From the IMG/VR virus record IMGVR_UViG_3300045988_096557: 56,927 nt of DNA, one strand, 5' to 3'. The position numbers were made by a program, and so were the translations under genes. Positions 43,349 through 56,927 of the stretch are shown here, piece by piece (the first letter of the stretch is position 1; every line of letters starts with the position of its first letter). The DNA is from a virus. The notes below the pieces were generated by a model, which ran no database searches, was not told the DNA's origin, and saw nothing but the letters and a program-made list of their open reading frames with translations.

Positions 43349-43349
43349 A

Positions 43350-43511: not shown

Positions 43512-43572
43512 GAAGATTGGGATAATTAAATTATCCACTTCTGCCCAACCGCACGGAAGAAAGGAAACTGCA

Positions 43573-44967: not shown

Positions 44968-45103
44968 AGTATTAGTATGGTTTGACGGCAAGCATTATTA
45001 TAATATATGCGCAGTCTGTGGAGAATTATATCCAATTTACAAAGTAGAAGATCATATTATATATAATTTAAAAAAGAAGTGTAAATGCGGAGAGAAGAAG
45101 TGA
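44957..45103 (+). CDS. Small zinc-ribbon protein (CxxC...CxC), 48 aa.
   Basis: ATGGATAAAG overlaps the previous stop. It has two Cys pairs and ends at TGA 45101-45103. Confidence 0.3.
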   Translation, partial: TMDKVLVWFDGKHYYNICAVCGELYPIYKVEDHIIYNLKKKCKCGEKK

Positions 45104-45125
45104 GTTCTTCTCTCTTTTCGTTATT
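45091..45125 (+). terminator. Rho-independent terminator candidate.
   Basis: AGAGAAGAA...TTCTTCTCT stem followed by a T-rich tract. Confidence 0.4.
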
Positions 45126-45389
45126 GAGATTGAAAAGTCGATTTAGATTTTGAAATGGCGTGGCAGAACGATTTTACAAAAAAATTTCCAGTTTTTCCCA
45201 AAATACACGCCCCTCTTTCACATGGTAAAGTATTGAAGTGTAGTTGGCCTCTTTCACTCGTTAAAGTACGAAAGCAAGAAAGCACGCCCCCCTAAAGGAA
45301 TACGCGCGCGTAAAGGATTTGTGCAAACTGCACAACAAGATGTTATTTATTTTGTGCAAAAGAGAGAGAAAGAAATTTCAAAAAAACTA

Positions 45390-45418
45390 TTGACAAGTGA
45401 GCATTTTGGTGGTAAACT
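45390..45418 (+). promoter_or_regulatory. Sigma-70-like promoter with an upstream A-tract (TTGACA-17-TGGTAAACT).
   Basis: TTGACA 45390-45395, spacer 45396-45412, TAAACT 45413-45418 preceded by TGG. The upstream tract AAATTTCAAAAAA is UP-element-like. Confidence 0.5.
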
Positions 45419-45486
45419 GGACTTGTCCAGTAGGACAGAGACAAAAGCACGGCACTTTGAAAATTAAAAAAATTTCAAAAAAGGTA

Positions 45487-45515
45487 TTGACAAACTGCTA
45501 AAGGTTTGATACAAT
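45487..45515 (+). promoter_or_regulatory. Consensus sigma-70 promoter with an upstream A-tract (TTGACA-17-TACAAT).
   Basis: TTGACA 45487-45492, spacer 45493-45509, TACAAT 45510-45515. The A-tract element matches that of the previous promoter. Confidence 0.55.
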
Positions 45516-45568
45516 ACAGACAGAACAAAAGAGAACCACACCACAAAAAGAAAGGGAGTCAAAAGAGT

Positions 45569-45943
45569 ATGAAAAAGATTGATTTTACCAATGAAGATCG
45601 AGCCATTATTATGGAGTATATGGCCGCTAAGATGGCTAAGTCTGCGGCGGAGGCGGCGGAGAAAGCAGCTAAGGCTAAGGCTAAAGAGCTATTCTCCAGA
45701 TTAGGTAAGGCTTTTAAGGCTACGGACAAAACAAGTTATCTATATGGCACGGTACAAATGCAGGGTAAGGCGAAAGCGGTGGTATATAAAGAAACTACCG
45801 CAAAAGGAACGGTTGACTGGAAAGCCTATGCTATGGCATTAGGCGGGACAGAGGCCGAAGCAGAGCAATTCCGCAGACCTTCCGATGTTCGTACCTCTTT
45901 TGATTGGGCGACAAAGACCCAAGAAGAAGAAATTAGAGGATAA
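45569..45943 (+). CDS. Hypothetical early protein, 124 aa (possibly Gp157-like).
   Basis: Ribosome-binding site AAAGGGAG, with an ATG at 45569 in frame with the listed ORF 45506..45943. Confidence 0.5.
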   Translation: MKKIDFTNEDRAIIMEYMAAKMAKSAAEAAEKAAKAKAKELFSRLGKAFKATDKTSYLYGTVQMQGKAKAVVYKETTAKGTVDWKAYAMALGGTEAEAEQFRRPSDVRTSFDWATKTQEEEIRG

Positions 45944-45954
45944 CAGTTTATAAA

Positions 45955-45995
45955 CCCTGCCTTGCAAAACACAAGGCAAGGCAGGGTTATAATAA
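45955..45995 (+). terminator. Rho-independent terminator.
   Basis: CCCTGCCTTGC...GCAAGGCAGGG, an 11-bp stem, followed by TTATAATAATT. Confidence 0.5.
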
Positions 45996-46017
45996 TTAAA
46001 AGAAAGGGGCATACTAT

Positions 46018-46164
46018 ATGTATCAGTTACAAGTTTTAGCCAATGAGAAAATGCGCTATTATGAACCATCCACCCTTTCAATGGCAAGATGGAAGGTCAG
46101 TCACGAGATAGTCAATCCTAATCATTGGATTGTGGATTTATCCAGTGGAGAAATCGTAGATTAA
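46018..46164 (+). CDS. Small hypothetical protein, 48 aa.
   Basis: Ribosome-binding site AAAGAAAGGGG plus ATG, ending at TAA 46162-46164. Confidence 0.35.
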   Translation: MYQLQVLANEKMRYYEPSTLSMARWKVSHEIVNPNHWIVDLSSGEIVD

Positions 46165-46210
46165 AAAGAAGCTGACCTAACGGCTATACGGGGAGAAAGG
46201 ATAAAAGACT

Positions 46211-46513
46211 ATGAACAATTATATTAAGTGGTTCGTTGGGCCTACTTTTAGAAAGCGTGAATTTATTAAACTTTTGCGGTATAAGATGAATGTGCGTTCC
46301 GCAGAGGTAGAGGACGGCATCATCTTAGACCTGGATGCTTTTAATGCCATGCGAGTGGCCTATATGCCACACTGGGCTTATATCAATAGAAAGTTTATCA
46401 ATAGCAATCTGCATACCAGAATTGCAAGCGAAGACGAATATAAGGTTGCTATGGTCGGAGATACAATCGGTACTGAATGGGTTAAAGAACAGGAGGCAAA
46501 GAAATGGAAATGA
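46211..46513 (+). CDS. Hypothetical protein, 100 aa.
   Basis: Listed ORF with a ribosome-binding site GGAGAAAGG. Confidence 0.55.
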   Translation: MNNYIKWFVGPTFRKREFIKLLRYKMNVRSAEVEDGIILDLDAFNAMRVAYMPHWAYINRKFINSNLHTRIASEDEYKVAMVGDTIGTEWVKEQEAKKWK

Positions 46514-46656
46514 GAATTATTAAGCGGATAGGAGGCGGCATTTGTGCCGCTCTCCTACTCTGGGCAGTTCTTAGTTGGGCTGATATAGTGGCGGATAACT
46601 GTGAGCCAAACCCACAGCACAGCGAATATAATATGTTCGTTCTCATGACTAAATAA
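46504..46656 (+). CDS. Small membrane peptide, 50 aa.
   Basis: Overlapping ATG with a hydrophobic core GGGICAALLLWAVLSW. Confidence 0.35.
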   Translation: MEMRIIKRIGGGICAALLLWAVLSWADIVADNCEPNPQHSEYNMFVLMTK

Positions 46657-46669
46657 TAGGAGGAAAAAA

Positions 46670-46903
46670 ATGTATAGAGGGACTTATATCGACGCCATGG
46701 GCCGCAAGCGCAGAGAGATGGGATATTTCAGTCTTAATAAGCCCACTCTGAATAAACTCCATATACCAGTAATTGTCCAAGCGAGAGATAAGACAAGTGC
46801 GGCGAATAAAATCAATAGGAAATATAAGTTGCGTATAAGTCCCAGCAATCTACGGGAGGTGCCGATGGGCACAGGCTATCTCATGGAAACCATGGAGCTG
46901 TAA
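46670..46903 (+). CDS. Hypothetical protein, 77 aa.
   Basis: Listed ORF with a ribosome-binding site AGGAGG. Confidence 0.55.
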   Translation: MYRGTYIDAMGRKRREMGYFSLNKPTLNKLHIPVIVQARDKTSAANKINRKYKLRISPSNLREVPMGTGYLMETMEL

Positions 46904-46914
46904 AGGAATAAAAA

Positions 46915-46953
46915 TGACTGGCAATCTGCACAAAGATTGCCAGTCATTTTTAT
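46915..46953 (+). terminator. Rho-independent terminator.
   Basis: TGACTGGCAATC...GATTGCCAGTCA stem followed by TTTTTAT. Confidence 0.6.
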
Positions 46954-46975
46954 GCACTTTTCCATATTGACTTTT

Positions 46976-47116
46976 CGCCGGGCCGCCAGCGTGCGCCGCG
47001 GCCCAAATTTTTATTTATCCGGCAGTTTCAACAATTATATGATCGAAAGTCTGTGCAATTCGACAAAAGATTTTCTCCCGAAATTACTTGACATTCCTCT
47101 TGTCATGTGTTATTAT
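46976..47116 (+). repeat. Early-region intergenic cassette, copy 1: GC-rich hairpin, AAATTTTT, TTTCAACAATT / TGTGCAATT half-sites, and promoter TTGACA-17-TATTAT (47088-47116).
   Basis: Motifs read directly from the sequence. The same architecture recurs at 6 further sites. Confidence 0.6.
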
Positions 47117-47170
47117 ATACTTGTCCAGAGGGACAAGGTCACAAAAAGAATTTGAAAGGAAGTAAAAGAA

Positions 47171-47410
47171 ATGACTTTGAAAATGATTGCAGGTCTGCTT
47201 TCTCCGCTCGCAGAAGATACCATGTTCTTTGACGGGGAAGGGGTCGAAATTATCAATGAGAATACTCAAGCTCATTACCATGAGCTACCTGATCACAAGA
47301 TAACCCTGGGAGGAGACGTCATTGAGGCGTCTAAGGAATGGGTGCTGGGACTTCCGGTAACTGGCATTAAAGCAAGAGGCAACAATCTAATCATTTATGT
47401 AGATGGTTAA
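47171..47410 (+). CDS. Hypothetical protein, 79 aa.
   Basis: Listed ORF with a ribosome-binding site GAAAGGAAG. Confidence 0.55.
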   Translation: MTLKMIAGLLSPLAEDTMFFDGEGVEIINENTQAHYHELPDHKITLGGDVIEASKEWVLGLPVTGIKARGNNLIIYVDG

Positions 47411-47473
47411 GAAAACCTGCGGGAGTGGAGGTTTATGGCCTCCACTCCCCACGATAAAAAAGGAGAAATAAAT

Positions 47474-47689
47474 ATGATTGCTGTTATTAAATTTGAAAGT
47501 GCAGAAAAGTCTGTGGAGTTTGGAAACACAATTTGTAATATGGCTGGTTGGTGTTTGAGTCATCCTCTCAATTCCAATGTTACCGGCTGTGTTCGTACGC
47601 TTGATTTTAATGCCGGCGACAAGCAAGATAGAGCCTTATATAATTATCTGCTAAAAATTGGAGCTTTCGAGGAGGTGGAATTAAAGTGA
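47474..47689 (+). CDS. Hypothetical protein, 71 aa.
   Basis: Ribosome-binding site AAAGGAGAAA, with an ATG at 47474 in frame with the listed ORF 47435..47689. Confidence 0.5.
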   Translation: MIAVIKFESAEKSVEFGNTICNMAGWCLSHPLNSNVTGCVRTLDFNAGDKQDRALYNYLLKIGAFEEVELK

Positions 47690-48095
47690 GTATTGAGCGT
47701 TTACCGCACACATATCCCATTGGCTCCACTGTTTGGACAAATAAGGGATATGGCACAGTTCTACTTCACATTGGTAAATACCATCTGGTTTGGTTACAGA
47801 GATTAGGGTTGGCGTAATGCCGGCCCTATTGATTTTTTCAAAAAAATATATTATAATAATTATAGAAAAATAAAGAAAGGAGTTTTTCTAATGACCTTAG
47901 AAGTGCTGAAAGCATTCGTGGTTATTTTGGAGTTCTGTTTGAACTAGGATTCTTGTAAAAATTGTCCTATGTCTCAGTTCTGCCAGAAAATGCCTTGCGA
48001 GTGGTAAATGTTCCTTCCGATTGTTCTAAATCGGCGATTCCCGTGATGGAGTCGTTTTTCGCACGAGCCTAGGTCACTAGAATTTATTTATCAAA

Positions 48096-48329
48096 ATGCA
48101 AGAAACTACTTTCTCTCGCAAATTAGATTCAAGTGGTAGAATTATGATTCCGATTCGCTTGCGTGAACAAATGGGACTTACTTCCGGTTAGGAATACTAT
48201 TTTACTACTATGGTAAAAGATGGTAGAAAATATATCTGTATTGACTGCGGATCGGTTGATTCCTCGCTTGAAGAAGCTATGAAAATTATCCAAGCAAACG
48301 GATTAAAGATTGTTGAAAATGCCGATTGA
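48096..48329 (+). CDS. Small AbrB/SpoVT-N swapped-hairpin domain protein, 77 aa, with 1 in-frame TAG (48189).
   Basis: SRKLDSSGRIMIPIRLREQMGL matches the AbrB N-domain and is paralogous to the N-terminus of the protein encoded at 49554..50015. Confidence 0.45.
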
Positions 48330-48371
48330 CTTCTCAAAAGAAAGGGAGTTGTTGGTATGCAGAAATTAATG

Positions 48372-48403
48372 ACCTCCTGAAATTCAGGAGGTTCTTTTTT
48401 TTT
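48372..48403 (+). terminator. Rho-independent terminator.
   Basis: CCTCCTG...CAGGAGG stem followed by a T9 run. A 7-codon mini-ORF (ATG 48357) ends inside the stem. Confidence 0.6.
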
Positions 48404-48410
48404 ATTCGTT

Positions 48411-48551
48411 CGCCCGGCCGTGCACCACAGGCGCGGCCGGAATTTTTTATCAAGAGGCAATTTGCACAATTTTAGGCTCGAATTGTTGTGCAATCTGACG
48501 AAAGATTTTTTCCTAAAATCGCTTGACTTTCTGCTTTGCCTATGGTATATT
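48411..48551 (+). repeat. Early-region cassette, copy 2: GC-rich hairpin, GAATTTTTT, TTGCACAATTTT...TTGTGCAAT dyad, and promoter TTGACT-17-TATATT (48523-48551).
   Basis: Motifs read directly from the sequence. Confidence 0.6.
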
Positions 48552-48604
48552 ATTATCAGAAAGAGGGAGACAGAAACACCTCGAAAGAAAGGAAAGAAAA
48601 AATC

Positions 48605-48862
48605 ATGGAAGAAAAGAAAATGATTTTGGTCACGGACGGATACGACGATAAACCTATCTGCGTAGCGTCTAATACCATCGCCGCCCGCAAGTCTGCGTTG
48701 GATTATCTGGAAAATCAATATGACGATGGAGAATGGGAGGCTATTCTGGAAGAAGATGGATATAAAAATCGTGATGACCTTTTCCATGATATGATGTTAG
48801 GCATGGAAAGCGAATGGGAGCGTTTCAATATTAACTTTGCGGAAGTTTCCTTTGCGGGGTGA
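48605..48862 (+). CDS. Hypothetical acidic protein, 85 aa.
   Basis: Ribosome-binding site AAAGGAAAG, with an ATG at 48605 in frame with the listed ORF. Confidence 0.5.
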   Translation: MEEKKMILVTDGYDDKPICVASNTIAARKSALDYLENQYDDGEWEAILEEDGYKNRDDLFHDMMLGMESEWERFNINFAEVSFAG

Positions 48863-48866
48863 GTAT

Positions 48867-49019
48867 ATGACAACTTTTACCATGATAATTCTGATTGCTT
48901 TTGTTCTGTGTCTGGTATGGCAATTTGTAGCCGCTATTGAAAAAGATTGCATAGGACTTGAAATCATGTTTGCGGCGGAAATCTTAATGTTCGCATATCT
49001 TGCAAAAACTTTGATGTAA
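48867..49019 (+). CDS. Small membrane protein, 50 aa.
   Basis: ATG 48867 with a hydrophobic core. Confidence 0.4.
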   Translation: MTTFTMIILIAFVLCLVWQFVAAIEKDCIGLEIMFAAEILMFAYLAKTLM

Positions 49020-49024
49020 GGGGT

Positions 49025-49053
49025 TGACAAATCGCCCCAACTATGGTACAATA
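49025..49053 (+). promoter_or_regulatory. Consensus sigma-70 promoter: TTGACA-17-TACAAT.
   Basis: GGGGTTGACAAATCGCCCCAACTATGGTACAAT. Confidence 0.55.
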
Positions 49054-49114
49054 AGACCATGGAAGGGACGACCCCGATAAATAAAAATTAAAATTAAGAA
49101 AGGAAGTTTTGGAA

Positions 49115-49501
49115 ATGCGTGTTAGTAAGGTTGTTCGGGAGTATATTGAAAAGGAAGTTGGAGTAAAGGCTGAAATCAAGAGGCAGGCTGTCCATGAAAC
49201 CTTTTCCGCTTATGAGACAGAGTGTAAAATCATGCAGGAGAAAGTTAAGCAGGCGGTAAAAGCCCTTAACGACGAACTTCTTTCGGAGGTTAAAAACAAG
49301 GGGATGAGTTTCCGCAGATATAATGACCGGCTGGTAGAGGCTTGCCAGGATTGTATTTACCCCGCTATGGAGAACGAGAAGAAAAAGGCCATGCGGGAAG
49401 TTAGCGACTGGGAGAAAAATGCCGTAACGGAAATTATTCTTACGCTTGAGTTGGGTGGTACTAAAGCTGACCTCGAACGGATGTTGAAAGAACTGGATTA
49501 A
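49115..49501 (+). CDS. Hypothetical protein, 128 aa.
   Basis: Ribosome-binding site AGAAAGGAAG plus ATG 49115, in frame with the listed ORF 49109..49501. Confidence 0.55.
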   Translation: MRVSKVVREYIEKEVGVKAEIKRQAVHETFSAYETECKIMQEKVKQAVKALNDELLSEVKNKGMSFRRYNDRLVEACQDCIYPAMENEKKKAMREVSDWEKNAVTEIILTLELGGTKADLERMLKELD

Positions 49502-49513
49502 GAAGGGAGGAAG

Positions 49514-49544
49514 GGAGTGCAAGACTATAAATCTTGCACTCCCG
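49514..49544 (+). other. Perfect 12-bp stem-loop (GGGAGTGCAAGA...TCTTGCACTCCC) in a 5' UTR, with no T-tract.
   Basis: An inverted repeat seen directly. A related hairpin beginning GGGAGTGGAGG lies at 47417-47447. Confidence 0.4.
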
Positions 49545-49553
49545 CAGATAAAA

Positions 49554-50015
49554 ATGAAAGCTACTGGAATTGTGCGCCGTATTGATGATTTGGGCCGGAT
49601 AGTAATTCCAAAGGAAATCCGTAGAAACCTTCATATTAGAGAAGGCGACCCATTAGAGATTTTTCTTGAAGAAGATGGCGGCGTAGTTTTTAAGAAATAT
49701 TCTATAATGGGAGAATTTTCCTCTTACGCTAAACAAATGCAAAATGCCCTTTCATCTAACGGAATCGCCGCGGCTATTTTTGACAATGATGGAATTTTAT
49801 GCGGGCCGCGTTCCTTTGGAATTACAAGAGTTCCCGATGACTGGATTGATATTCGCAGTTCGGCGACAAAATGGGAAAGTATGTTTATTACACCAATTCT
49901 TGTGAATGGCGACCAGGTTGGTTTTATTTGCTATAAAAATAGCAATAACGAAGAATCTGTCCATGACATGGTTAAACTTTCTGCAAGATTTCTTGCAAAT
50001 ATATGTGAAAGTTAA
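49554..50015 (+). CDS. SpoVT/AbrB-family transcriptional regulator (AbrB N-domain plus a GAF-like C-domain), 153 aa.
   Basis: The N-terminus GIVRRIDDLGRIVIPKEIRRNLHIREGDPLEIF is a near-canonical SpoVT/AbrB swapped-hairpin domain. The overall length and a C-terminal domain of about 100 aa resemble SpoVT. Confidence 0.6.
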   Translation: MKATGIVRRIDDLGRIVIPKEIRRNLHIREGDPLEIFLEEDGGVVFKKYSIMGEFSSYAKQMQNALSSNGIAAAIFDNDGILCGPRSFGITRVPDDWIDIRSSATKWESMFITPILVNGDQVGFICYKNSNNEESVHDMVKLSARFLANICES

Positions 50016-50040
50016 AAGAGGGCTTCGGCCCTCTTTTTTA
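50016..50040 (+). terminator. Rho-independent terminator (AGAGGGCTTCGGCCCTCT followed by TTTTTT).
   Basis: A GC stem with a T-run. The same stem sequence recurs at 50909 and 52303. Confidence 0.65.
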
Positions 50041-50064
50041 TCCCATTTTTTGAATAGGCTTCTC

Positions 50065-50182
50065 GGCGGCGCGCTAACGTGCGTGGCGCGCCGAATTTTC
50101 TCTTTTGTAGAAGTTGCACAATTTTCCAGCCGAAATTTTGTGCAGTTTGCCTCTTGTTTTCTATCCCGAAATCTGATATACT
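50065..50182 (+). repeat. Early-region cassette, copy 3: GC-rich hairpin, GAATTTT, TTGCACAATTTT...AAATTTTGTGCAG dyad, and promoter TTGTTT-17-TATACT (50154-50182).
   Basis: Motifs read directly from the sequence. Confidence 0.55.
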
Positions 50183-50214
50183 TTAATCAACCTAAAGAAA
50201 GGAAGTAAATCAAA

Positions 50215-50679
50215 ATGAAAAAGATGCTCTGCTTTGATATGGATGGAACAATCGCTGACCTGTACGGCGTGGATGATTGGTTAAAAGATTTAATGAATGA
50301 AAATCCCTATCCATATACAGTCGCCAAACCTCTTTGCGATATAGAAGAATTGAATACCGTTCTTAATAAACTCATTGAGCAGGGCTGGGAAATTCGGGTT
50401 ATCAGTTGGCTTGCAAAAGACAGTTCTAACTCATATAAAACTGCTGTTCGTGACGCAAAGCGCATTTGGCTTGCAAAATACAACTTCCCCGCACATAAAG
50501 TCCACCTTGTGGAATATGGCACAACAAAAGCAAATTGTGTGCGGAAACACTTTGAGCCGGGAATTAGCAATTTCATTTTGATTGATGATAATAAAAGTGT
50601 GCGGGATGGCTGGCATTTAGGGGAAACAATCGAGCCACATGAAGATTTACCTACGGCCTTATGGCGACTGGTAGAGTAA
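50215..50679 (+). CDS. HAD-superfamily 5'(3')-deoxyribonucleotidase-like hydrolase, 154 aa.
   Basis: N-terminal HAD motif I CFDMDGTIADL, and an LIDD motif near the C-terminus. Confidence 0.55.
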   Translation: MKKMLCFDMDGTIADLYGVDDWLKDLMNENPYPYTVAKPLCDIEELNTVLNKLIEQGWEIRVISWLAKDSSNSYKTAVRDAKRIWLAKYNFPAHKVHLVEYGTTKANCVRKHFEPGISNFILIDDNKSVRDGWHLGETIEPHEDLPTALWRLVE

Positions 50680-50719
50680 TCCACCAGTCAATCTTAAAAT
50701 AAGAAAGGAAGTTTTGTAA

Positions 50720-50908
50720 ATGAAGATTAGAAAGGTTAATAGGCTTATCCTCAGCGAGGAAGAGCGACAAGTATTGAAAAATGCGTCCATTCTCATTGGT
50801 CAAATTGATCAGGTTATGGCCGACAATGAAATTGATGACGATATTTCGCTTGAAGATTTGAGCTATTGGCTTGACGAGATTATCAATAAAGAATATCTTG
50901 GATATTAA
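50720..50908 (+). CDS. Hypothetical acidic protein, 62 aa.
   Basis: Listed ORF with a ribosome-binding site AGAAAGGAAG. Confidence 0.5.
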   Translation: MKIRKVNRLILSEEERQVLKNASILIGQIDQVMADNEIDDDISLEDLSYWLDEIINKEYLGY

Positions 50909-50932
50909 GAGGGCTTCGGCCCTCTTATTTTT
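50909..50932 (+). terminator. Rho-independent terminator (AGAGGGCTTCGGCCCTCT followed by TATTTTT).
   Basis: A GC stem with a T-run. Confidence 0.6.
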
Positions 50933-50952
50933 ACTCTTTAATATCGTTTGGG

Positions 50953-51069
50953 CGGCTCGCTGGCGCACGCGGCGAGCCGAGTTTTTGTTTTTGTCGATGT
51001 TGCACAATTTTGGCTTGCAAATTTTGTGCAATTTGCCATCTTGTAATTATCCCGAAAGTATGGTATTAT
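50953..51069 (+). repeat. Early-region cassette, copy 4: GC-rich hairpin, AGTTTTT, TTGCACAATTTT...AAATTTTGTGCAA dyad, and promoter TTGTAA-17-TATTAT (51041-51069).
   Basis: Motifs read directly from the sequence. The downstream leader of about 160 nt has only a tiny RBS-led ORF. Confidence 0.55.
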
Positions 51070-51232
51070 ATATTTGTCAAGAGGGGAAGGCCAAGAAATC
51101 AAGAGGTCGCGAACTCTTAGAAAGTAAAGGAAGTAAATTTATATTGTGTCGTAAGTCGAGTGAACGCCGTTAGAATAGGCCGTTCTAATGCCCAGTAGCT
51201 TGCAGTAAATCGCAATAAAAATTTCCTTTTCC

Positions 51233-51261
51233 TCTTGACATCAAGCATGATATGTGCTATA
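51233..51261 (+). promoter_or_regulatory. Consensus sigma-70 promoter: TTGACA-17-TATAAT.
   Basis: CTCTTGACATCAAGCATGATATGTGCTATAAT. Confidence 0.55.
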
Positions 51262-51295
51262 ATAAACTCAACAAGAGGAAAGGAAGTCAAAGATT

Positions 51296-52087
51296 ATGAT
51301 TGATAAGCGTAGACACTATGTTTTGGTGGTTGATACTGAAACTGCTAACACACTGACTGAAACTGACGAAAACGGCAAAGCCCGCATGGATATGAGTTGC
51401 GTTCTTGTCTATGATTGCGGATGGGCGGTAGTGGATACCAAGGGCAATATTTATGAAACTGCCAGTTTTGTAAATAGGGACATTTTCAACGATGAGCGGG
51501 ATCTCATGCGGACTGCTTATTATAATTGGAAAATTCCCCGCTATATTGAGGAACTGCGGGCCGGCACTCGTAAAATGGCTACCACTTATGAAATCCGCCA
51601 AGCTATGCTCAATACCATTGAGCGATACGGCATTAAGGAAGTTGCGGCTTATAATGCCAGATTTGACGATAATGCCTTGAGAGTTACACAGCGTTATGTG
51701 ACCTACTCCAAGTGGCGTTATTGGTTCCCGTTTGACAGCGTGGAGATTTGGGATATTATGAAGATGACACAGGATGTTATCTGCAATATGCCCACTTATA
51801 AGAAATTCTGTCAGGAAAACGGATATGTCCAGGCTAATGGTGTCCCCCGCAAGACTGCGGAAATCGTATGGCGGTATATCTCCGGCAATAATGAGTTTGA
51901 GGAAAGCCATACGGGATTGGAAGATGTGCTGATTGAAGCGGAAATTATGTGGTATTGTATGCGACAGCACAAGCCCATGAGAAAAGCTCTTTATGAGAAT
52001 AGGAAGGAATTTCCTCCCATGACCGATTTTCAGAGGCGGCTTTCCGCAAGTTTGAAGAATAATCCGACAATCCGGGTTGGGGCTTAA
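51296..52087 (+). CDS. DEDDh-family 3'-5' exonuclease (DnaQ-like), 263 aa.
   Basis: Exo I motif VLVVDTETAN, the Exo II region, and an Exo III motif HTGLEDVLIEAEI. Confidence 0.6.
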   Translation: MIDKRRHYVLVVDTETANTLTETDENGKARMDMSCVLVYDCGWAVVDTKGNIYETASFVNRDIFNDERDLMRTAYYNWKIPRYIEELRAGTRKMATTYEIRQAMLNTIERYGIKEVAAYNARFDDNALRVTQRYVTYSKWRYWFPFDSVEIWDIMKMTQDVICNMPTYKKFCQENGYVQANGVPRKTAEIVWRYISGNNEFEESHTGLEDVLIEAEIMWYCMRQHKPMRKALYENRKEFPPMTDFQRRLSASLKNNPTIRVGA

Positions 52088-52115
52088 AGCCCCGCCCGGT
52101 AGAAAGGACAGAGAT

Positions 52116-52298
52116 ATGAGAACTGAAAAAATTTGGTTCGACTTTATGAACGCCGATTGCCAATATCAGGCAAGAAAGGTCATTGAGCGAATGGGATGGA
52201 CTATTGATGAAAATCTCGATGGCGATGGCGGCTATCCTGTTCATTTCCCCGAAGAGGATTTAGGACTGTTTGAATTTCTTGATATATGCTGGTCATAA
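52116..52298 (+). CDS. Hypothetical acidic protein, 60 aa.
   Basis: Ribosome-binding site GAAAGGACAGAG plus ATG 52116, in frame with the listed ORF 52077..52298. Confidence 0.45.
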   Translation: MRTEKIWFDFMNADCQYQARKVIERMGWTIDENLDGDGGYPVHFPEEDLGLFEFLDICWS

Positions 52299-52302
52299 AG
52301 GA

Positions 52303-52328
52303 AGGGCTTCGGCCCTTCTTTTTTATAC
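52303..52328 (+). terminator. Rho-independent terminator (GAAGGGCTTCGGCCCTTC followed by TTTTTT).
   Basis: A GC stem with a T-run. Confidence 0.6.
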
Positions 52329-52341
52329 CTCGAAAAGTCAG

Positions 52342-52501
52342 CGGCCCGCGGATGGCTGACGCGGGCCGAATTTTTCAATGGTAATGTTGCACAAAAATTT
52401 CGCCCCGTTTTTGTACAAAATTCTGCACAAAAACTTTCTCCCAAAATCCTGATTTTTTGTGCAATTTGACGCTTGCAATCTGTTTCCACTTGTGTTACAA
52501 T
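52342..52501 (+). repeat. Early-region cassette, copy 5: GC-rich hairpin, GAATTTTT, four TTGCACAA / TTGTGCAA-type half-sites, and promoter TTGCAA-17-TACAAT (52473-52501).
   Basis: Motifs read directly from the sequence. Confidence 0.55.
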
Positions 52502-52571
52502 ACTATCAGAAAGTGAGAGAGACGAACGGCAGACAGCGACAGCGAACTTTCAGAAATCTTTCAAAAACCCC

Positions 52572-52860
52572 TTGACAAGCCTTTGCAAGTGTGATATAAT
52601 CATTACAGAAAGCAAGGCAAGGCACCTTGAAAATTTTCAAAAAAAGACTTGACAAACCGCCTTGAATGTGCTATACTAAAGGCGTAAAGAGGAAAGCCAA
52701 ACGGTTTTGAAACGGCGAGTAGCGACAGTCAAAAAAGTTTGAAAAACCTCTTGACAAACGCAAGAAGTTGTGGTACAATAAAGGCACAGTAAAGGTTATA
52801 GCATACCAGTCCCGGTTGAGAGAAAAATCTCTTGACAAACGGAAAAAGGTATGATATAAT
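52572..52860 (+). promoter_or_regulatory. Array of four tandem consensus sigma-70 promoters, each with an upstream TTTCAAAAA / TTTGAAAAA A-tract and an extended -10: P1 52572-52600, P2 52649-52677, P3 52751-52779, P4 52832-52860.
   Basis: Each is TTGACA, exactly 17 bp, then TATAAT / TATACT / TACAAT / TATAAT with TGn upstream. Confidence 0.6.
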
Positions 52861-52906
52861 AAATACATCAAGGGTGACGACCTACCGTCAGAAAGGAAGT
52901 ATCATT

Positions 52907-53308
52907 ATGAGCGAGAAGAAAGTCCGTATCACTAAGGCCCAGCGTTTCGAGGACATCAAGGCCCTTCTGAATGGCGACCCCGTGACATATGGCACGACCC
53001 CGGAGATTGCGGTCACTGTTATTGACCATGAGCTGGAGCTTCTGGCGAAGAAGAACTCTGGTAGCGGCGATAAGAAGTTGACCCCGACCCAGCAGGAGAA
53101 CGAGGCGCTCAAGGAGCAGATTGTGGAGTACCTGTCCACTCTGCCCGATGACACCGATGGCGTGACCTGCACGGAGATTTTGAAGTCCGTGCCTGCCCTG
53201 ACTGATTTTAGCAATCAGAAAGTGGCGGCTCTGGTGCGTCAGCTCAAGATGGCCGGCCGTGTCGTGGCTACGGAGAAAAAGGGCAAGTCCCTGTTCCGTA
53301 TGGCCTAA
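52907..53308 (+). CDS. Hypothetical protein, 133 aa, GC-rich, with a possible winged-helix C-terminus.
   Basis: Ribosome-binding site GAAAGGAAGT plus ATG 52907. Markedly higher GC than the flanking DNA. Confidence 0.55.
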   Translation: MSEKKVRITKAQRFEDIKALLNGDPVTYGTTPEIAVTVIDHELELLAKKNSGSGDKKLTPTQQENEALKEQIVEYLSTLPDDTDGVTCTEILKSVPALTDFSNQKVAALVRQLKMAGRVVATEKKGKSLFRMA

Positions 53309-53343
53309 CCCCGATAGGGCGGGGTGAAATATCCCCGCCCTAC
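53309..53343 (+). terminator. Stem-loop / terminator candidate (AGGGCGGGG...CCCCGCCCT).
   Basis: A 9-bp GC stem. A similar hairpin lies at 53771-53797. Confidence 0.4.
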
Positions 53344-53414
53344 TAAATAAGAAAAGGGGTGATACCATAAGTAGCAGAATTACGGATGCCGAGCGGATCG
53401 CAAGGTATAAGGGC

Positions 53415-53765
53415 TTGAACCTATCCCCGCAAGAGGAAAAGGATTTACTTGCCTATGATAAGGCCGTTGAAGCGGGGGGGCGGACGCAGTATGACCTCCC
53501 CCCGGATAAGGCAAAAGTAGCGCAGAAATTCGCCCATGCGGGAACACGGAAAGCGCCCACCGCCTACAAGTTTACGCCCCGGCAGAGAAAACCCAACGCA
53601 ACTAAAGGGGGCATTATCGCAGAGCTTGCAGAGTTTCTGGAAAAGAATAGTCAGTTTTCCATTGTAAATCTGCAAGTCACCAACAAGGAACGGCAGATAG
53701 CCTTTTCTATTGGTGAGGACAGTTTCGAGTTGACGCTTGTGCAAAAGCGAAAACCGAAGAAATAA
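53415..53765 (+). CDS. Hypothetical basic protein, 116 aa, GC-rich (TTG start as listed).
   Basis: Listed ORF. No strong ribosome-binding site. Confidence 0.4.
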   Translation: MNLSPQEEKDLLAYDKAVEAGGRTQYDLPPDKAKVAQKFAHAGTRKAPTAYKFTPRQRKPNATKGGIIAELAEFLEKNSQFSIVNLQVTNKERQIAFSIGEDSFELTLVQKRKPKK

Positions 53766-53843
53766 CCGGGATAGGCGGGATACCGTCTATCCCGCCTCCC
53801 AAAAGGAAGTGATACTATCCGCCGTGAGAAAGAGTTTCTGTAT

Positions 53844-54164
53844 GTGGGGCATTATGTGGACACAAAAGGCCGTTATATCCTGAAAATAGGAACGACAAAC
53901 GACCTAAAGCGCAGAGCCGCAGAGCATACAAGGAATTACAAGAAAACCCGTGAGTTTACCATGCCGGAAAATTCCTGTTTTGTCTATGACTGGTGGCGTC
54001 CTCTTTCCAAGTATAATACTTTGAGATATGAGGACGCAAACCGGGCAAGATGGCAAGATATGGGAATTGGGCGTTTCATCAGGAACGACAGATTTTTCTG
54101 TGAGAAAAAACCTGACATGGTAACAATTACCATTCGCAAAACCTATACTATCCCGCTGGCATAG
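53844..54164 (+). CDS. GIY-YIG nuclease domain protein, about 106 aa, GC-rich. The start is uncertain and the gene ends with TAG.
   Basis: GHYVDTKGRYILKIGTTNDLKRRAAEH resembles the GIY-x10-YIG...R...E motif. Confidence 0.45.
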   Translation: MGHYVDTKGRYILKIGTTNDLKRRAAEHTRNYKKTREFTMPENSCFVYDWWRPLSKYNTLRYEDANRARWQDMGIGRFIRNDRFFCEKKPDMVTITIRKTYTIPLA

Positions 54165-54180
54165 TCCAGCGGGATTTTTT
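54140..54180 (+). terminator. Rho-independent terminator (TCCCGCTGG...CCAGCGGGA followed by T7).
   Basis: A stem with a T-run overlapping the gene's 3' end. Confidence 0.6.
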
Positions 54181-54204
54181 TCGTCATTTTGCACAAAAGC
54201 CCTG

Positions 54205-54324
54205 GGCGGCGCGTTTGCGGTTGCAACGCGCCGAATTTTTCGTTTACTAGTAATTTCAACAATTTTATCGGAAAAAATCGGTACAAATCGTTTAATTGAC
54301 TTTTCCCGAATTTCATGTTATAAT
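54205..54324 (+). repeat. Early-region cassette, copy 6: GC-rich hairpin, GAATTTTT, degenerate half-sites, and promoter TTGACT-17-TATAAT (54296-54324).
   Basis: Motifs read directly from the sequence. Confidence 0.55.
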
Positions 54325-54349
54325 AGAAGAAACAAAGGAGGAATTTAAA

Positions 54350-54964
54350 ATGATTTTTGATTTAGATTAGTTACTTGAGTTTTTTCATGCGTCTAAATCT
54401 ACCGTTACAACAAATTTTCCTAAATTTGCTTCTAATCAAGCTAAAAAAGGATATTTAATTACTAAATAGGGAATTGGCAAAGAAGCAACTTATGAAGTAG
54501 AAAAAATTACACCTAAATATATTGATCCTTCAAACTTTTCTAATCGAAAGATTGAAATCGCAGAGTCTCTCCCCGGAGAAATTTGGAAGACTACTTATTG
54601 CTCCAATAAGCATGAAGTTTCCAATCTTGGTAGAATAAGACGAAAAGATAATAAAACATTGATTAAAGGATCAATGACCTCAGACGGATATTTAAAAACA
54701 GAAATAATAAGAAATACTCCCCTCAGAATCCATCGAATTGTAATGCAAACTTTCAATCCTATTGAAAATTTTGAAACTAAAGTAGTAGATCACATCAATG
54801 GAGTTAGAACAGATAATAGACTTGAAAATCTACGTTGGGCCTCCCCAGAAGAAAATACTCTCTTGATGTTAAAAAATCGAGAGGAAATTACTCGTGAAAC
54901 TACTAGACTTATAAATAAGTATGGATATGAAAAAACGCTTGAATTAATTCAAGCAATACCTTGA
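54350..54964 (+). CDS. HNH homing endonuclease (NUMOD4 plus HNH), 204 aa, with 2 in-frame TAGs (54368, 54467).
   Basis: GEIWKTTYCSNKHEVSNLGRIRR...DGYL...HRIV...VDHINGVRTDNRLENLRWASPEEN is a classic HNH_3 motif set. Ribosome-binding site AAAGGAGG. The listed ORF 54659..54964 extends upstream in frame across two TAGs. Confidence 0.65.
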
Positions 54965-54968
54965 TATT

Positions 54969-55640
54969 CGGCGGGCCGCGCAGGGATGTGTCGGCCCGAA
55001 TTTCCCCGATCGGACCATAGCGCAAAATTTTCATAGCAACTTGGCCATAACGCAACTTCATAGCAATTTTCCCAAAATTCATAACACCCTCTTCCAAACA
55101 CCGATCGGCCCTACTTTACTTCTTCCTTTATCTAGTTCCGATCGGTCCAGCAATATTGGCTCTCTCGTCCAATTTTTTATAATAAAAATCTTAAAATTGT
55201 CAAGTATTCACAGTACCAAAACTTTCTAAAATACAACTAGCAATAGCAAAGATATAGCTATGAAAAACAAATACGACCAGAGATTTCTTTCGCGGAACCG
55301 ATCGGTTTAACACGATTTTATGATAAAAAATAGCTCAAAAATAGAGATTTTAGCTAGATAAACCGATCGGCCCGCGATCTTTTACCTCTTGTTATCGCAA
55401 AATATAACAAAAAACCTCTAAAATCTTGCAAAAATGCGCGTTTTTCTAACAAATTTACTTAAAAATAAGCAAAAAATGCCTCGTTTTTCTCAAAATTTCT
55501 TGATATTCACAGAATTAAAACCATTAAAGATACAGCAAACAATAGTAAAGATGTTGCTAACTATTTGAAAAGGAAAAATCTTTTCCGCGGGATTCCGTTA
55601 AAGCGATCTTTTTATCTAGACCCGATCGGTTCGACAATAT
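54969..55640. other. AT-rich non-coding region rich in repeats: a partial cassette (copy 7) hairpin, five CATAGCAA-like direct repeats, six CCGATCGG palindromes, and two 26-bp direct repeats. Candidate replication origin or partition site.
   Basis: CCGATCGG occurs at about 55006, 55100, 55137, 55297, 55362 and 55621, and again at 56316. No ORF of 60 aa or more is credible here. Confidence 0.45.
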
Positions 55641-55736
55641 ATAAAAAATATAATATAATATATACATAAGATAAAGAAAAGGAGGATTTTAGTTTAAGAA
55701 GCATCATAACGCTTTTTCTAACTAAAAGAACTTATT

Positions 55737-56192
55737 ATGAATAGTTATGAGATTATGATTCGTGATGCAATGCAGAATGGTTCTACTCAGGAGGAGATTG
55801 CAAAGGCATTTACTGATGCTATGAATAGAATCTCCGAGGCTAACGCCGCAGACCATGAACGAGATATTCTTCTGGATGAGATTGAGTCTACTTTTTATGG
55901 CAATGTTGATGATTTGTCTCTCACTGAGGATGACGTTGGTCGTGTAGCTGCGCTGGTTTATAGCAAGAGCAATCCTAAGTGGACAGCAAATGATATTAAG
56001 CAGTTTATGCAGGCTATGACTGTAACTGCTAAGACTTCCGCTCGAGTAGTCAATGCAAAGAGTCTTGATGAAGTAATTGACATTGCTGTTGACTCTATTT
56101 CTGATGCTCTCGCAAAGAGTGTGCCTCAGGTTAAGGGTAATACTAAGTCTGATGAAGATAGTATTATGGAGTTTTTGAAGCATTTAAAGTAA
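55737..56192 (+). CDS. Hypothetical acidic protein, 151 aa.
   Basis: Listed ORF ending at TAA. Confidence 0.5.
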   Translation: MNSYEIMIRDAMQNGSTQEEIAKAFTDAMNRISEANAADHERDILLDEIESTFYGNVDDLSLTEDDVGRVAALVYSKSNPKWTANDIKQFMQAMTVTAKTSARVVNAKSLDEVIDIAVDSISDALAKSVPQVKGNTKSDEDSIMEFLKHLK

Positions 56193-56211
56193 CAAGAGGA
56201 AAAAGATTAAA

Positions 56212-56245
56212 GGAGAGAGAAGTATTGTAGCTTCTCTCCTTTTTT
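56212..56245 (+). terminator. Rho-independent terminator (GGAGAGAGAAG...CTTCTCTCC followed by TTTTTTAT).
   Basis: A stem with a T-run. Confidence 0.6.
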
Positions 56246-56375
56246 ATATATATTATAATCGCGGAAGGCTAGGTTTACGATCGTTGTGACGAGTGTTGTG
56301 ATGGTTCGTACCTAGACCCGATCGGCACCCAACTCCATCATTTTATAAACTTCTTTTAATTTCCTTTAATTTCTT

Positions 56376-56795
56376 TCAATCTTCATATAAAGATAATCTA
56401 CATCTCTATCCAGTTCTATTTATCTCTCTTATCCTTCCAACCAAATCATATATCTCTCCATTTTTATCTCGATTTTTCAATTCGATTTCTCTAAAACCTT
56501 CTTCTAACTTTTCAATTCGTTTTTCTAAATCGGTTATAGAGTCCTCTAAATCTTGAGTAAAAACATCTATACTTATCCTATTATGATACTTATCTACTAT
56601 AACTCTACTTCTTCCTTCTACCTTTAAATTCTCTTCCATCCATTCTTCTAACTTATCATCAAATTTATTCTTTACAAAATATACCTTGCCTTCTTCTTCA
56701 TCATCTTTAAAGTAAACTAATACTGGTTCATACTAATTTAATCCATTCTTCATGAATTGATAATTTTCTACCTTAATCGGTTTAAATACTTCCAT
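56376..56795 (-). CDS. Hypothetical coiled-coil protein, about 139 aa, with in-frame TAGs. It extends the listed ORF 56406..56639 upstream to ATG 56795 and downstream to TGA 56376.
   Basis: Ribosome-binding site AGGAGGA plus ATG. Same-frame continuation across TAG. Confidence 0.4.
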
Positions 56796-56927
56796 GCCTT
56801 AATCCTCCTACTCATCGCTTTTTCACAAATACATAAAAAAGTCGCGACTGTTATCTTAACTCTGTTATCTAATATATGTTATATTTGTTGTATTGTCAGA
56901 ATACCATGAAATGGATTTTTATTTACT

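What the first reader, a model, noticed from the sequence alone, without database searches (positions are those of the whole stretch)
54969..56330. Origin-like AT-rich region with a CCGATCGG palindrome array and iterons
About 750 bp (54969-55740) has no credible ORF and is very AT-rich. It carries several repeat families.
- The 8-bp palindrome CCGATCGG six times, at about 55006, 55100, 55137, 55297, 55362 and 55621. A seventh copy lies at 56316 just past the next gene. Each copy is embedded in GC-containing flanks such as ACCGATCGGCCC or CCCGATCGGTTCGAC.
- Five tandem CATAGCAA-like direct repeats at 55020-55075.
- Two 26-bp direct repeats: AAAATGCGCGTTTTTCTAACAAATTT and AAAATGCCTCGTTTTTCTCAAAATTT.
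- Repeated TATTCACAG motifs.

Such iteron and palindrome clustering next to AT-rich DNA is typical of phage replication origins or centromere-like (parS) sites. CGATCG also contains GATC, raising the possibility of methylation-sensitive control.
Basis: seen in the sequence. Interest (0 to 1): 0.6.

Follow-up and report, generated by a model that had tools for sequence, protein, structure and literature searches.

The report
Palindrome-studded control region of gut phage
A 770-bp stretch with no gene, in an uncultivated gut phage that reads TAG as glutamine, carries an 8-base palindrome (CCGATCGG) found almost nowhere else in the genome; it looks like a bank of protein docking sites that control promoters of one small gene, not a replication origin.

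Summary
CCGATCGG occurs 8 times in the window (0.11 expected), 7 of them in 55006-56325. In 23 related loci, which overlap and are not independent, I counted 131 copies in 30.5 kb of arrays against 2 in 210 kb of flanks. The five CATAGC/CATAAC repeats, the 26-nt repeats and the TATTCACAG copies are also there. The stretch is non-coding. "Very AT-rich" is wrong: 34.3% GC against 35.0% for the window.

The region is a conserved module in a large clade of TAG-recoded gut phages (contigs about 56-190 kb). Its order is:
- a GC hairpin of terminator type;
- CCGATCGG;
- CATAGC/CATATG iterons;
- sigma-70-type promoters P1 and P2, then a structured leader;
- an acidic 151-aa gene;
- a terminator, then a last CCGATCGG.

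The palindrome sits at fixed distances from the promoters: 19-20 nt after the P1 -10 hexamer, and 1, 19 or 22 nt before the P2 -35 hexamer. A winged-helix protein gene (52907-53308) lies upstream in all six array types where upstream sequence is held (type F was not searchable).

Best reading (0.45): an operator array for a dimeric DNA-binding protein that times expression of the small gene. The origin reading (0.2) failed the tests I could run: GC-skew minimum and least stable DNA lie at 41.8 kb, DnaA-like boxes are not enriched, and site spacing is irregular.

The parts
54969..55003 (+). GC-rich hairpin of terminator type that opens the module. It is the seventh member of a hairpin family that closes early operons.
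   Evidence: It folds at -20.6 kcal/mol. Six paralogues in the window and the orthologues of types A, C, E, G and L303 fold at -17.6 to -22.3 with different stem sequences. The 97%-identity block shared with L123 starts exactly here, at 54968.
55006..55013 (.). CCGATCGG box 1, directly after the hairpin
   Evidence: A box at this position is kept in types A, B, C, D, E and G.
55016..55087 (+). Five CATAGC/CATAAC iterons, spaced 13-21 nt start to start. The counterparts in types B, C, E, F and G are CATATG(C).
   Evidence: In relatives CATATG is almost confined to the array: 3 of 3, 6 of 8, 3 of 3 and 2 of 3 copies per locus.
55101..55108 (.). CCGATCGG box 2. With box 3 it forms a 14-nt inverted repeat.
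   Evidence: I15. It is absent from type B.
55138..55145 (.). CCGATCGG box 3, 10 nt before the -35 hexamer of P1
   Evidence: It is lost through a clean 10-nt deletion in relative L126.
55156..55183 (+). Promoter-like site P1 (TTGGCT-16-TATAAT)
55189..55260 (+). Copy 1 of a 72-nt direct repeat (contains TATTCACAG). It marks a lineage-specific segmental duplication.
   Evidence: D2. The stretch between the boxes homologous to 3 and 5 is only 58 nt in type B, against 217 nt here.
55298..55305 (.). CCGATCGG box 4. With box 5 it forms a perfect 12-nt inverted repeat, CCGATCGGTTTA / TAAACCGATCGG.
   Evidence: I18.
55363..55370 (.). CCGATCGG box 5
   Evidence: The homologous pair is spaced 51-81 bp in relatives.
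55430..55498 (+). Two 26-nt repeats (AAAATGCGCGTTTTTCT / AAAATGCCTCGTTTTTCT). By my reading they are homologous to the segment just downstream of P1 in type B, which carries a decayed box, CGCCTCGG.
55488..55559 (+). Copy 2 of the 72-nt direct repeat
55622..55629 (.). CCGATCGG box 6, 1 nt before the -35 hexamer of P2
   Evidence: The arrangement is the same in type B. The gap is 22 nt in types D and F and 19 nt in type G.
55631..55659 (+). Promoter P2 (TCGACA-17-TATAAT, followed by ATATA). It is the best-conserved stretch of the module.
   Evidence: It is invariant within type B even between lineages only 82% identical overall.
55687..55727 (+). Hairpin in the leader of the gene X mRNA
   Evidence: The hairpin is kept with different sequences in types A, B and B' (UGGUUCUUC/GAAGAACUA, UGGUUUUAC/GUAAAACCA, GGUUUUUC/GAAAAACU).
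55737..56192 (+). Gene X: a 151-aa acidic (pI 4.5), all-helical protein of unknown function that the module drives
   Evidence: It has 122 homologue clusters, all unnamed, and no Pfam, PHROG or PDB match by sequence or fold. A homologue follows the array in types A, B, C, D, G and L303.
56215..56238 (.). Bidirectional intrinsic terminator between the convergent genes X and Y
56257..56343 (.). Conserved non-coding island (CGATCG ... GTGACGA ... TACCTAGACCCGATCGGCACCCAAC) that ends with box 7 at 56318-56325
   Evidence: It is 93% identical to L277, although gene X there is only 32% identical as protein. The motifs recur in types B, C, D and G. No consensus RNA structure was found.
52907..53308 (+). 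Candidate binding protein: a 133-aa winged-helix protein, encoded 1.7 kb upstream
   Evidence: It lies upstream of the array in types A, B, C, D, E and G; for type F only about 2.9 kb of upstream sequence is held and no homologue was found there. The model has pLDDT 88, and its C-terminal wHTH resembles Fur, PerR, ArsR, MarR and TubR. The recognition helix SNQK..L.RQL (or a near variant) is kept down to 41% identity.

Best explanation
The segment is a conserved non-coding control region together with the small gene it controls.

Layout:
- A GC hairpin of terminator type closes the upstream operon.
- After it come two sets of short symmetric boxes: CCGATCGG, and CATAGC (CATATG in relatives).
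- The boxes are interleaved with host-type (sigma-70-like) promoters P1 and P2. Both promoters point through a structured leader into gene X (55737-56192).
- One further box lies beyond the gene's terminator.

Inferred mechanism: the CCGATCGG boxes are operators for a dimeric, sequence-specific DNA-binding protein. The candidate is the winged-helix protein encoded at 52907-53308. Bound 19-20 nt downstream of the P1 -10 hexamer it would block P1. Bound just upstream of the P2 -35 hexamer it would activate or repress P2. The many boxes, including the one past the terminator, would allow cooperative binding or looping. In this way the phage would time expression of gene X during infection.

Shown: the motif enrichment, the conservation, the promoter geometry, the transcribed leader and the synteny. 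Inferred: that a protein binds, which protein it is, and the sign of regulation.
For: - Enrichment: the motif is confined to this module. There are 8 copies against 0.11 expected in the window, and 131 in arrays against 2 in 210 kb of flanks across relatives.
- Site 1 and the post-terminator site are kept in types A, B, C, D and G while the sequence between them diverges beyond alignment. Types E and F are incomplete or degenerate at these positions.
- Fixed promoter geometry. The box is 19, 20 and 19 nt after the P1 -10 hexamer in types C, G and F, with a decayed CGCCTCGG at the same place in type B. It is 1 nt before the P2 -35 hexamer in A and B and 22 nt before it in D and F. The 21-nt difference is two helical turns. 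These gaps put the box centre near -40.5 and -61.5.
- P2 (-35, N17, TATAAT, ATATA) is present in all types examined. It is followed by a leader hairpin kept through compensatory changes, so the region is transcribed towards gene X.
- Six other intergenic cassettes in the same early block have the same plan: a GC hairpin, then TTGCACAA/TTGTGCAA boxes, then a TTGACA-17-TATAAT promoter. Here CCGATCGG and CATAGC occupy the operator position.
- An 8-bp perfect palindrome without conserved flanks, invariant in every copy, fits recognition of double-stranded DNA by a dimer better than RNA pairing.
- A wHTH protein is syntenic in six of the seven CCGATCGG-bearing types (A-E, G), with a conserved recognition helix.
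- Boxes turn over as regulatory sites do. One is gained in L133, one is lost in L126, and the count ranges from 3 to 7.
Against: - No binding protein has been demonstrated.
- The distant relative L303 keeps the whole architecture and a wHTH homologue whose helix starts with the same SNQK, yet has no CCGATCGG at all. This weakens the proposed protein-site pairing.
- Type C has no box within 45 nt upstream of the P2 -35 hexamer.
- 770 bp and about 11 boxes is a lot of DNA to control one 151-aa gene.
- The box after the terminator has no promoter to act on unless looping is assumed.
- The promoters are consensus matches only. No transcription data were available.
Confidence: 0.45

Rival explanations
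1. Replication origin. The CATAGC iterons and CCGATCGG palindromes would bind an initiator, possibly the upstream winged-helix protein. Transcription from P1 and P2 would help to open the DNA, as at transcription-activated phage origins (lambda ori, T4 oriF/oriG, lactococcal phage c2 ori; these examples are recalled from knowledge, not tested here).
For: - The stretch is long, conserved and non-coding, with two repeat families and promoters.
- A 50-100-bp patch at 55634 ranks 5th to 7th least stable in the window.
- A small DNA-binding protein gene is syntenic in six of the seven CCGATCGG-bearing array types.
- The module moves between genomes as a unit.
Against: - The cumulative GC-skew minimum is at about 41-42 kb. 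At 55-56 kb the skew turns the opposite way, though skew here follows gene orientation.
- The least stable DNA is 41775-41870, where the 102-bp intergenic stretch 41789-41890 has 15.7% GC.
- The region as a whole has the genome's mean GC.
- DnaA-like boxes are at background frequency and none is perfect.
- Box spacing is irregular (37-259 bp) and drifts among relatives.
- Type G compresses everything into about 330 bp, with the boxes placed relative to promoters.
- No replication gene was recognised next to it. Only a uracil-DNA glycosylase-like ORF, recognised by eye from its GQDPYH motif, lies about 8 kb downstream in type B.
Confidence: 0.2
2. A DNA-handling site other than an origin. This could be a centromere-like partition site, or a packaging, anchoring or injection-stop site, bound by the winged-helix protein. 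Comparable cases recalled from knowledge are TubR/tubC, omega-protein heptad arrays, the seven GATC-containing hexamers of the P1 pac site, and the repeat-rich T5 injection-stop region.
For: - The array consists of a dispersed palindrome that contains GATC.
- The wHTH model resembles TubR and the pNOB8 centromere-binding protein, among many other wHTH proteins.
- Several assemblies end within 40-740 bp after box 7.
Against: - The contig ends are explained by variable tandem repeats (CTACTATTTTATCAATTT) just past box 7.
- No ParA, ParM or TubZ family was hit by the ORFs flanking the array that I scanned, and none of the unscanned ORFs near it exceeds 263 aa.
- Large terminase and portal lie 16-19 kb away.
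- The boxes span 1.3 kb, far wider than a compact pac site.
Confidence: 0.1
3. An RNA element. The region would be transcribed as a long leader or non-coding RNA in which CCGAUCGG segments pair with one another, within or between molecules.
For: - The + strand folds better than shuffles (z = -2.7). In the predicted fold box 1 pairs with box 2 and box 4 with box 5.
- Boxes 2/3 and 4/5 form extended inverted repeats.
- A promoter abuts the hairpin in types B and C.
Against: - Any repeated palindrome gives such a z-score.
- Box 7 lies beyond an intrinsic terminator.
- No box varies by wobble or compensatory change.
- Box number is odd in L126 and L133.
- Box 3 can be deleted.
- There is no Rfam match, and no consensus structure around box 7.
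Confidence: 0.07
4. Recombination boundaries. The hairpin and CCGATCGG boxes would serve as crossover points that let the gene X cassette be swapped between phages, like the promoter-stem-loop cassettes (PeSLs) of T4-type phages (recalled from knowledge).
For: - The window is 95% identical to L207 up to 54266 and 97% identical to L123 from 54968 to 56808.
- The flanks differ among relatives exactly at the hairpin.
- A 17-nt direct repeat, TAYCTAGACCCGATCGG, brackets gene X (D5).
Against: - The right end of the shared block is at 56808, not at box 7.
- The internal boxes are not mosaic joints.
- No recombinase is associated.
- The boundaries may simply mark where selection tolerates joints.
Confidence: 0.08
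5. Methylation or restriction-related sites. CCGATCGG (core CGATCG/GATC) would be the target of a host or phage methyltransferase or nuclease, and methylation state would gate the locus.
For: The motif has the form of a type II recognition site and contains GATC.
Against: - None of the ORFs I scanned is a methyltransferase or restriction enzyme.
- Clustering of target sites in one intergenic region is not what restriction pressure produces.
- The motif is absent from relative L303, which has the same architecture.
Confidence: 0.05

Closest known systems
Multi-operator control regions of phages and plasmids (for example KorB OB sites of RK2, omega-protein heptad arrays of pSM19035, MetJ metbox arrays). 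Recalled from knowledge.
   Same: Short symmetric boxes are repeated many times, sit at defined distances from sigma-70-type promoters, and include distal copies that could act through cooperativity or looping.
   Different: The motif (CCGATCGG) and the binding protein are unknown. The boxes are not in tandem register. A second box family (CATAGC/CATATG) accompanies them, and one box lies beyond the regulated gene's terminator.
Iteron-type replication origins (lambda ori, plasmid oriV, SPP1 oriL). Recalled from knowledge.
   Same: Non-coding DNA with repeated binding-site-like elements and nearby promoters, and a small DNA-binding protein gene in the neighbourhood.
   Different: There is no phased iteron array, no distinct AT-rich unwinding region, no skew switch, no DnaA-box enrichment and no recognisable initiator.
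Promoter-stem-loop (PeSL) regulatory cassettes of T4-type phages. Recalled from knowledge.
   Same: Hairpin-plus-promoter cassettes recur between small early genes, and mosaic joints fall at the cassettes.
   Different: The host type and sequences differ. Here the hairpin precedes the operator boxes and the promoter. Mobility of the cassettes was not shown.
P1 pac site (seven TGATCA/G hexamers controlled by Dam methylation) and cyanobacterial HIP1 (GCGATCGC). Recalled from knowledge.
   Same: A short palindrome containing GATC or CGATCG is iterated about seven times (P1), or shares the CGATCG core (HIP1).
   Different: The P1 sites lie within about 160 bp inside the terminase gene, whereas here they span 1.3 kb and are 16 kb from the terminase. 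HIP1 is spread across the genome, whereas this motif is confined to one locus.

Membership tests
Iteron-type replication origin | Tandem, regularly phased initiator-binding repeats | tested here: not met
   CCGATCGG spacings are 95, 37, 160, 65, 259 and 696 bp and differ among relatives. Only the five CATAGC units are close-set, 13-21 nt apart.
Iteron-type replication origin | Adjacent AT-rich unwinding element that stands out from the genome | tested here: not met
   The region is 34.3% GC against 35.0% for the window. The least stable DNA is at 41775-41870. The only extreme patch here is promoter P2.
Iteron-type replication origin | Compositional (GC-skew) switch at the site | tested here: not met
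   The cumulative minimum is at 41-42 kb, and at 55-56 kb the turn has the opposite sense. The test is confounded by gene orientation.
Iteron-type replication origin | Initiator gene at or next to the origin | tested here: inconclusive
   A wHTH protein of unknown function lies 1.7 kb upstream and is syntenic in types A-E and G. No known initiator family was hit.
Iteron-type replication origin | Supports autonomous replication | not testable with these tools
   This needs an experiment, and the host is uncultured.
ParB/parS centromere | 16-bp parS-type palindrome (recalled consensus TGTTNCACGTGAAACA) | tested here: not met
   The motif is an 8-bp palindrome with unconserved flanks.
ParB/parS centromere | ParB and ParA genes nearby | tested here: not met
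   No such family appears among the ORFs flanking the array that I scanned. About 40 kb of the genome lies outside the window and was not seen.
Operator array of a transcription regulator | Sites at fixed positions relative to promoters | tested here: met
   The box is 19-20 nt after the P1 -10 hexamer in three types, and 1, 19 or 22 nt before the P2 -35 hexamer in five types.
Operator array of a transcription regulator | Dyad symmetry that suits a dimeric binder | tested here: met
   The 8-bp palindrome is perfect in every copy.
Operator array of a transcription regulator | Cognate regulator that binds the site and changes transcription | not testable with these tools
   There is only a candidate, wHTH133. 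L303 argues against a simple pairing.
P1-type pac site | Compact cluster within or beside the terminase small-subunit gene | tested here: not met
   The boxes span 1.3 kb, and the large terminase is at 37793-39538.
HIP1-like genome-wide palindrome | High density throughout the genome | tested here: not met
   Seven of the 8 copies lie in 1.3 kb, and there are 2 copies in 210 kb of relatives' flanks.
Known structured RNA family (Rfam) | Match to a covariance model | tested here: not met
   There are no matches at gathering score, and only chance-level hits at E up to 5.

The most novel reading that the evidence does not exclude
The CCGATCGG/CATATG array, together with the syntenic winged-helix protein, is the replication origin and initiator pair (or a partition-type DNA-handling site) of a widespread, abundant clade of TAG-recoded gut phages of Clostridia. 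It would use an 8-bp palindrome as its iteron, and it is exchanged between phages as a self-contained module.
Probability: 0.2. Interest if true: 0.6.

Novelty: new variant of a known kind. Interest (0 to 1): 0.4.

Why it matters
These phages are common in gut metagenomes: gene X alone has 122 homologue clusters, on contigs up to 148 kb. They switch genetic code between early and late genes, and almost nothing is known about how they are regulated. A conserved and easily recognised cis-element with a candidate binding protein gives a concrete handle on their early gene control, or on replication if the rival reading is right. It is also a sequence signature for finding members of the clade. 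The 8-bp palindrome is simple enough to test directly by gel shift or DAP-seq.

Tried and rejected
- DnaA boxes. TATTCACA resembles TTATNCACA (8 of 9), but such near-matches occur at 1.2 per kb across the window and none is perfect. Rejected.
- Gene X as the binding protein. It is acidic (pI 4.5-4.9), all-helical, and has no fold or sequence match. Unlikely to bind DNA.
- Hidden coding sequence. The table-15 open frame is broken by indels in close relatives. Rejected.
- tRNA or suppressor tRNA, and Rfam families. None found.
- Structured RNA around box 7. No consensus structure.
- Contig ends as genome termini. They are explained by variable tandem repeats after box 7 and by the DGR variable repeat at the window start.
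- Prophage or host identification. No relative of gene X was found in representative genomes. Related whole-phage contigs are binned in Oscillospiraceae, Eubacterium and Clostridia MAGs, which is only a hint of the host.
- Searches that gave nothing useful. The collection scan for two CCGATCGG 28-58 nt apart mostly returned unrelated high-GC DNA. DNA search of INPHARED gave nothing. The literature search for the motif found only primers and a HIP1-related table. The isolated CCGATCGG copies in L262/L266-type contigs are single sites, one of them coding.
- HNH or GIY-YIG endonuclease as the reason for the sites. Relatives without these genes keep the sites.
Full report
**Context.** The window is part of a phage genome that reads TAG as an amino acid. 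Long open frames cover 0.94-1.0 of most of the sequence under table 15, against 0.1-0.5 under table 11.
- A minus-strand late block (3429-41788) encodes a phage sigma factor, large terminase and portal.
- A plus-strand early block (41891-56192) is read mostly in the standard code. It is driven by near-consensus TTGACA-17-TATAAT promoters.
- The finding lies at the end of the early block. It sits between an HNH_3/NUMOD4 homing endonuclease (54350-54964) and a 151-aa ORF, here called gene X (55737-56192).

**The observation.** CCGATCGG occurs 8 times in 56.9 kb, where shuffles give 0.11.
- Seven copies lie at 55006, 55101, 55138, 55298, 55363, 55622 and 56318. The eighth, at 43775, is coding.
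- The CATAGC/CATAAC units, the 26-nt repeats and a 72-nt duplication that carries TATTCACAG are all present.
- The stretch is non-coding. It has no ATG ORF of 60 aa or more under table 15. The single 125-codon open frame is interrupted in close relatives by a 1-nt indel and by 10-nt and 14-nt deletions. There is no tRNA and no Rfam family.
- One claim fails. The region is 34.3% GC and the window is 35.0%, so it is not unusually AT-rich.

**Relatives.** A scan for paired palindromes, a search with gene X and scans with array-derived patterns recovered many related contigs of about 56-190 kb. Most come from one metagenome, and some are binned in Oscillospiraceae, Eubacterium and Clostridia MAGs. 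They fall into array types A-G, which are too divergent to align between the boxes. All share one plan:
- a GC hairpin;
- CCGATCGG;
- CATAGC or CATATG(C) iterons, then TTYCCCGAAA;
- further boxes;
- promoter P1, then promoter P2;
- a leader hairpin, then gene X and its terminator;
- a conserved island that ends in CCGATCGG.

Across 23 loci, which overlap and are not independent, the motif occurs 131 times in 30.5 kb of arrays and twice in 210 kb of flanks. The number of boxes ranges from 3 (type G) to 7. One homologous pair is spaced 51-81 bp apart. One box was gained in L133. One was lost in L126 through a clean 10-nt deletion.

**What the boxes track.** A direct measurement shows that P2 (-35, N17, TATAAT, ATATA) is present in all types examined.
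- CCGATCGG precedes the P2 -35 hexamer by 1 nt in types A and B, by 22 nt in D and F, and by 19 nt in G.
- The difference between 1 and 22 nt is two helical turns. It puts the box centre near -40.5 and -61.5.
- At P1 the box starts 19, 20 and 19 nt after the -10 hexamer in types C, G and F. Type B has a decayed CGCCTCGG at exactly that place.
- Downstream of P2, a leader hairpin is kept through different sequences in different lineages. This shows transcription towards gene X.

**The hairpin and the cassette plan.** The hairpin at 54969-55003 is the seventh member of a family. The other six (near 46977, 48414, 50065, 50951, 52340 and 54205) fold at -17.6 to -22.3 kcal/mol with different stems. 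Each is followed by a U run, by TTGCACAA/TTGTGCAA boxes and then by a consensus promoter. The early region is thus built from cassettes of terminator, operator and promoter. In the cassette studied here, CCGATCGG and CATAGC stand where the operators stand in the others. Long, promoter-dense intergenic regions are common in this block, for example 52299-52906 with four tandem promoters.

**A candidate binder.** Gene X is acidic (pI 4.5-4.9), all-helical and matches nothing by sequence or fold. It is an unlikely DNA binder.

A 133-aa protein (52907-53308) lies 1-2 kb upstream of the array in types A, B, C, D, E and G; no homologue was found in the roughly 2.9 kb of upstream sequence held for type F.
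- It models with pLDDT 88. Its C-terminal winged helix resembles Fur, PerR, ArsR, MarR and TubR.
- It keeps its recognition helix (SNQK..L.RQL or a near variant) down to 41% identity. This parallels the invariance of the box.

The link is only circumstantial. A distant relative (MT835855, L303) has the whole architecture and a homologue whose helix still starts with SNQK, but no CCGATCGG at all.

**Tests of the origin reading.**
- The cumulative GC-skew minimum is at 41-42 kb, at the divergent junction of the late and early blocks. At 55-56 kb the curve turns the other way, although skew here follows gene orientation.
- The least stable duplex in the window is 41775-41870, where the 102-bp intergenic stretch has 15.7% GC. 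In the array only the P2 promoter patch ranks high, and at a 200-bp scale the region is unremarkable.
- DnaA-like boxes are at background frequency.
- No replication or partition gene was recognised nearby.

These results do not exclude an origin, but every origin-specific prediction I could test failed.

**RNA and termini.**
- The + strand folds better than shuffles (z = -2.7), as any set of repeated palindromes would.
- Box 7 lies beyond a terminator.
- The island around box 7 has no consensus structure, yet it is 93% identical between genomes whose gene X proteins share only 32%. This points to sequence-level constraint, as expected for protein binding.
- Several assemblies end shortly after box 7. 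The cause is a variable tandem repeat, CTACTATTTTATCAATTT.

**Mosaicism.** The window is 95% identical to L207 from 51231 to 54266. It is 97% identical to L123 from 54968 to 56808, and the two stretches are separated by the HNH gene. The module therefore moves as a unit, with its left edge exactly at the hairpin.

The HNH gene sits between promoter 54296-54324 and the hairpin. A 69%-identical HNH gene is found with the same variant hairpin loop in a type B genome, L298. I read this as a homing insertion with co-conversion of the flank.

**Verdict.**
- The most likely reading (0.45) is an operator array for a dimeric DNA-binding protein that governs the tandem promoters of gene X, possibly through looping to the distal box.
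- An origin stands at about 0.2. Other DNA-handling sites, an RNA element, recombination boundaries and methylation targets are each at or below 0.1.
- It is a new variant of a known kind of element, in a poorly understood and abundant phage clade. Interest is 0.4.

Noticed in passing
window 1-37, 724-760, 1067-2284: A diversity-generating retroelement. The reverse transcriptase (RVT_1, YMDD) is at 1067-2284. The template repeat at 724-760 matches the variable repeat at 1-37, and all 6 mismatches fall on template adenines. The variable repeat and its target gene are cut by the window start, which probably explains why assemblies break there. The unannotated ORF 133-627 sits where the accessory gene usually lies.
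   Followed up: partly
window 41789-41890: A 102-bp divergent intergenic region with 15.7% GC. It lies between the phage sigma-factor gene (40718-41788, minus strand) and the early block. It is the least stable DNA in the window and coincides with the cumulative GC-skew minimum, so by composition it is a better origin candidate than the reported region.
   Followed up: partly
window 46977, 48414, 50065, 50951, 52340, 54205: A family of GC-rich hairpins with differing stems. Each is followed by AAUUUUU, by TTGCACAA / TTGTGCAA (or TTTCAACAA) boxes and by a consensus promoter. This is a second, separate operator system that serves most early operons.
   Followed up: partly
window 52562-52863: Four near-consensus sigma-70-type promoters in tandem (52572, 52649, 52751, 52832). 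They lie upstream of a 52%-GC island (about 52900-54160) of three standard-code genes in a 35%-GC genome. The island includes the winged-helix protein gene.
   Followed up: no
window 54350-54964; L298 1307-1915: An HNH_3/NUMOD4 homing endonuclease is inserted between a promoter and the module's hairpin. A 69%-identical copy sits at the same place in a different array type (L298), together with the same variant hairpin loop (GCGCAGGGATGTGT). This suggests homing with co-conversion, and a target in or next to the hairpin.
   Followed up: partly
window 48096-48329, 49554-50015, 44325-44762, 43573-44340: The early block encodes two AbrB/SpoVT-type regulators (one with a SpoVT-like C-terminal domain), a PTH2 peptidyl-tRNA hydrolase and a microbial-type PARG. 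The SpoVT/AbrB genes point to a Firmicutes (Clostridia) host.
   Followed up: no
L122 about 4600-4700; L124, L125, L126 ends; L137: Just past the last CCGATCGG, relatives carry variable-number tandem repeats (CTACTATTTTATCAATTT, or CCTATTTT in L137). Several contigs end inside these repeats.
   Followed up: partly
L303 (MT835855.1) 8330-10000: A distant relative from human faeces (30% GC) keeps the hairpin, P1, P2, gene X and the post-terminator island but has no CCGATCGG. GTCCC-containing strings stand at the corresponding places and may be a replacement motif.
   Followed up: partly
window 56376-56795: A convergent minus-strand 139-aa acidic ORF (gene Y). It travels with the module in types A and D but is absent from the other types.
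   Followed up: no
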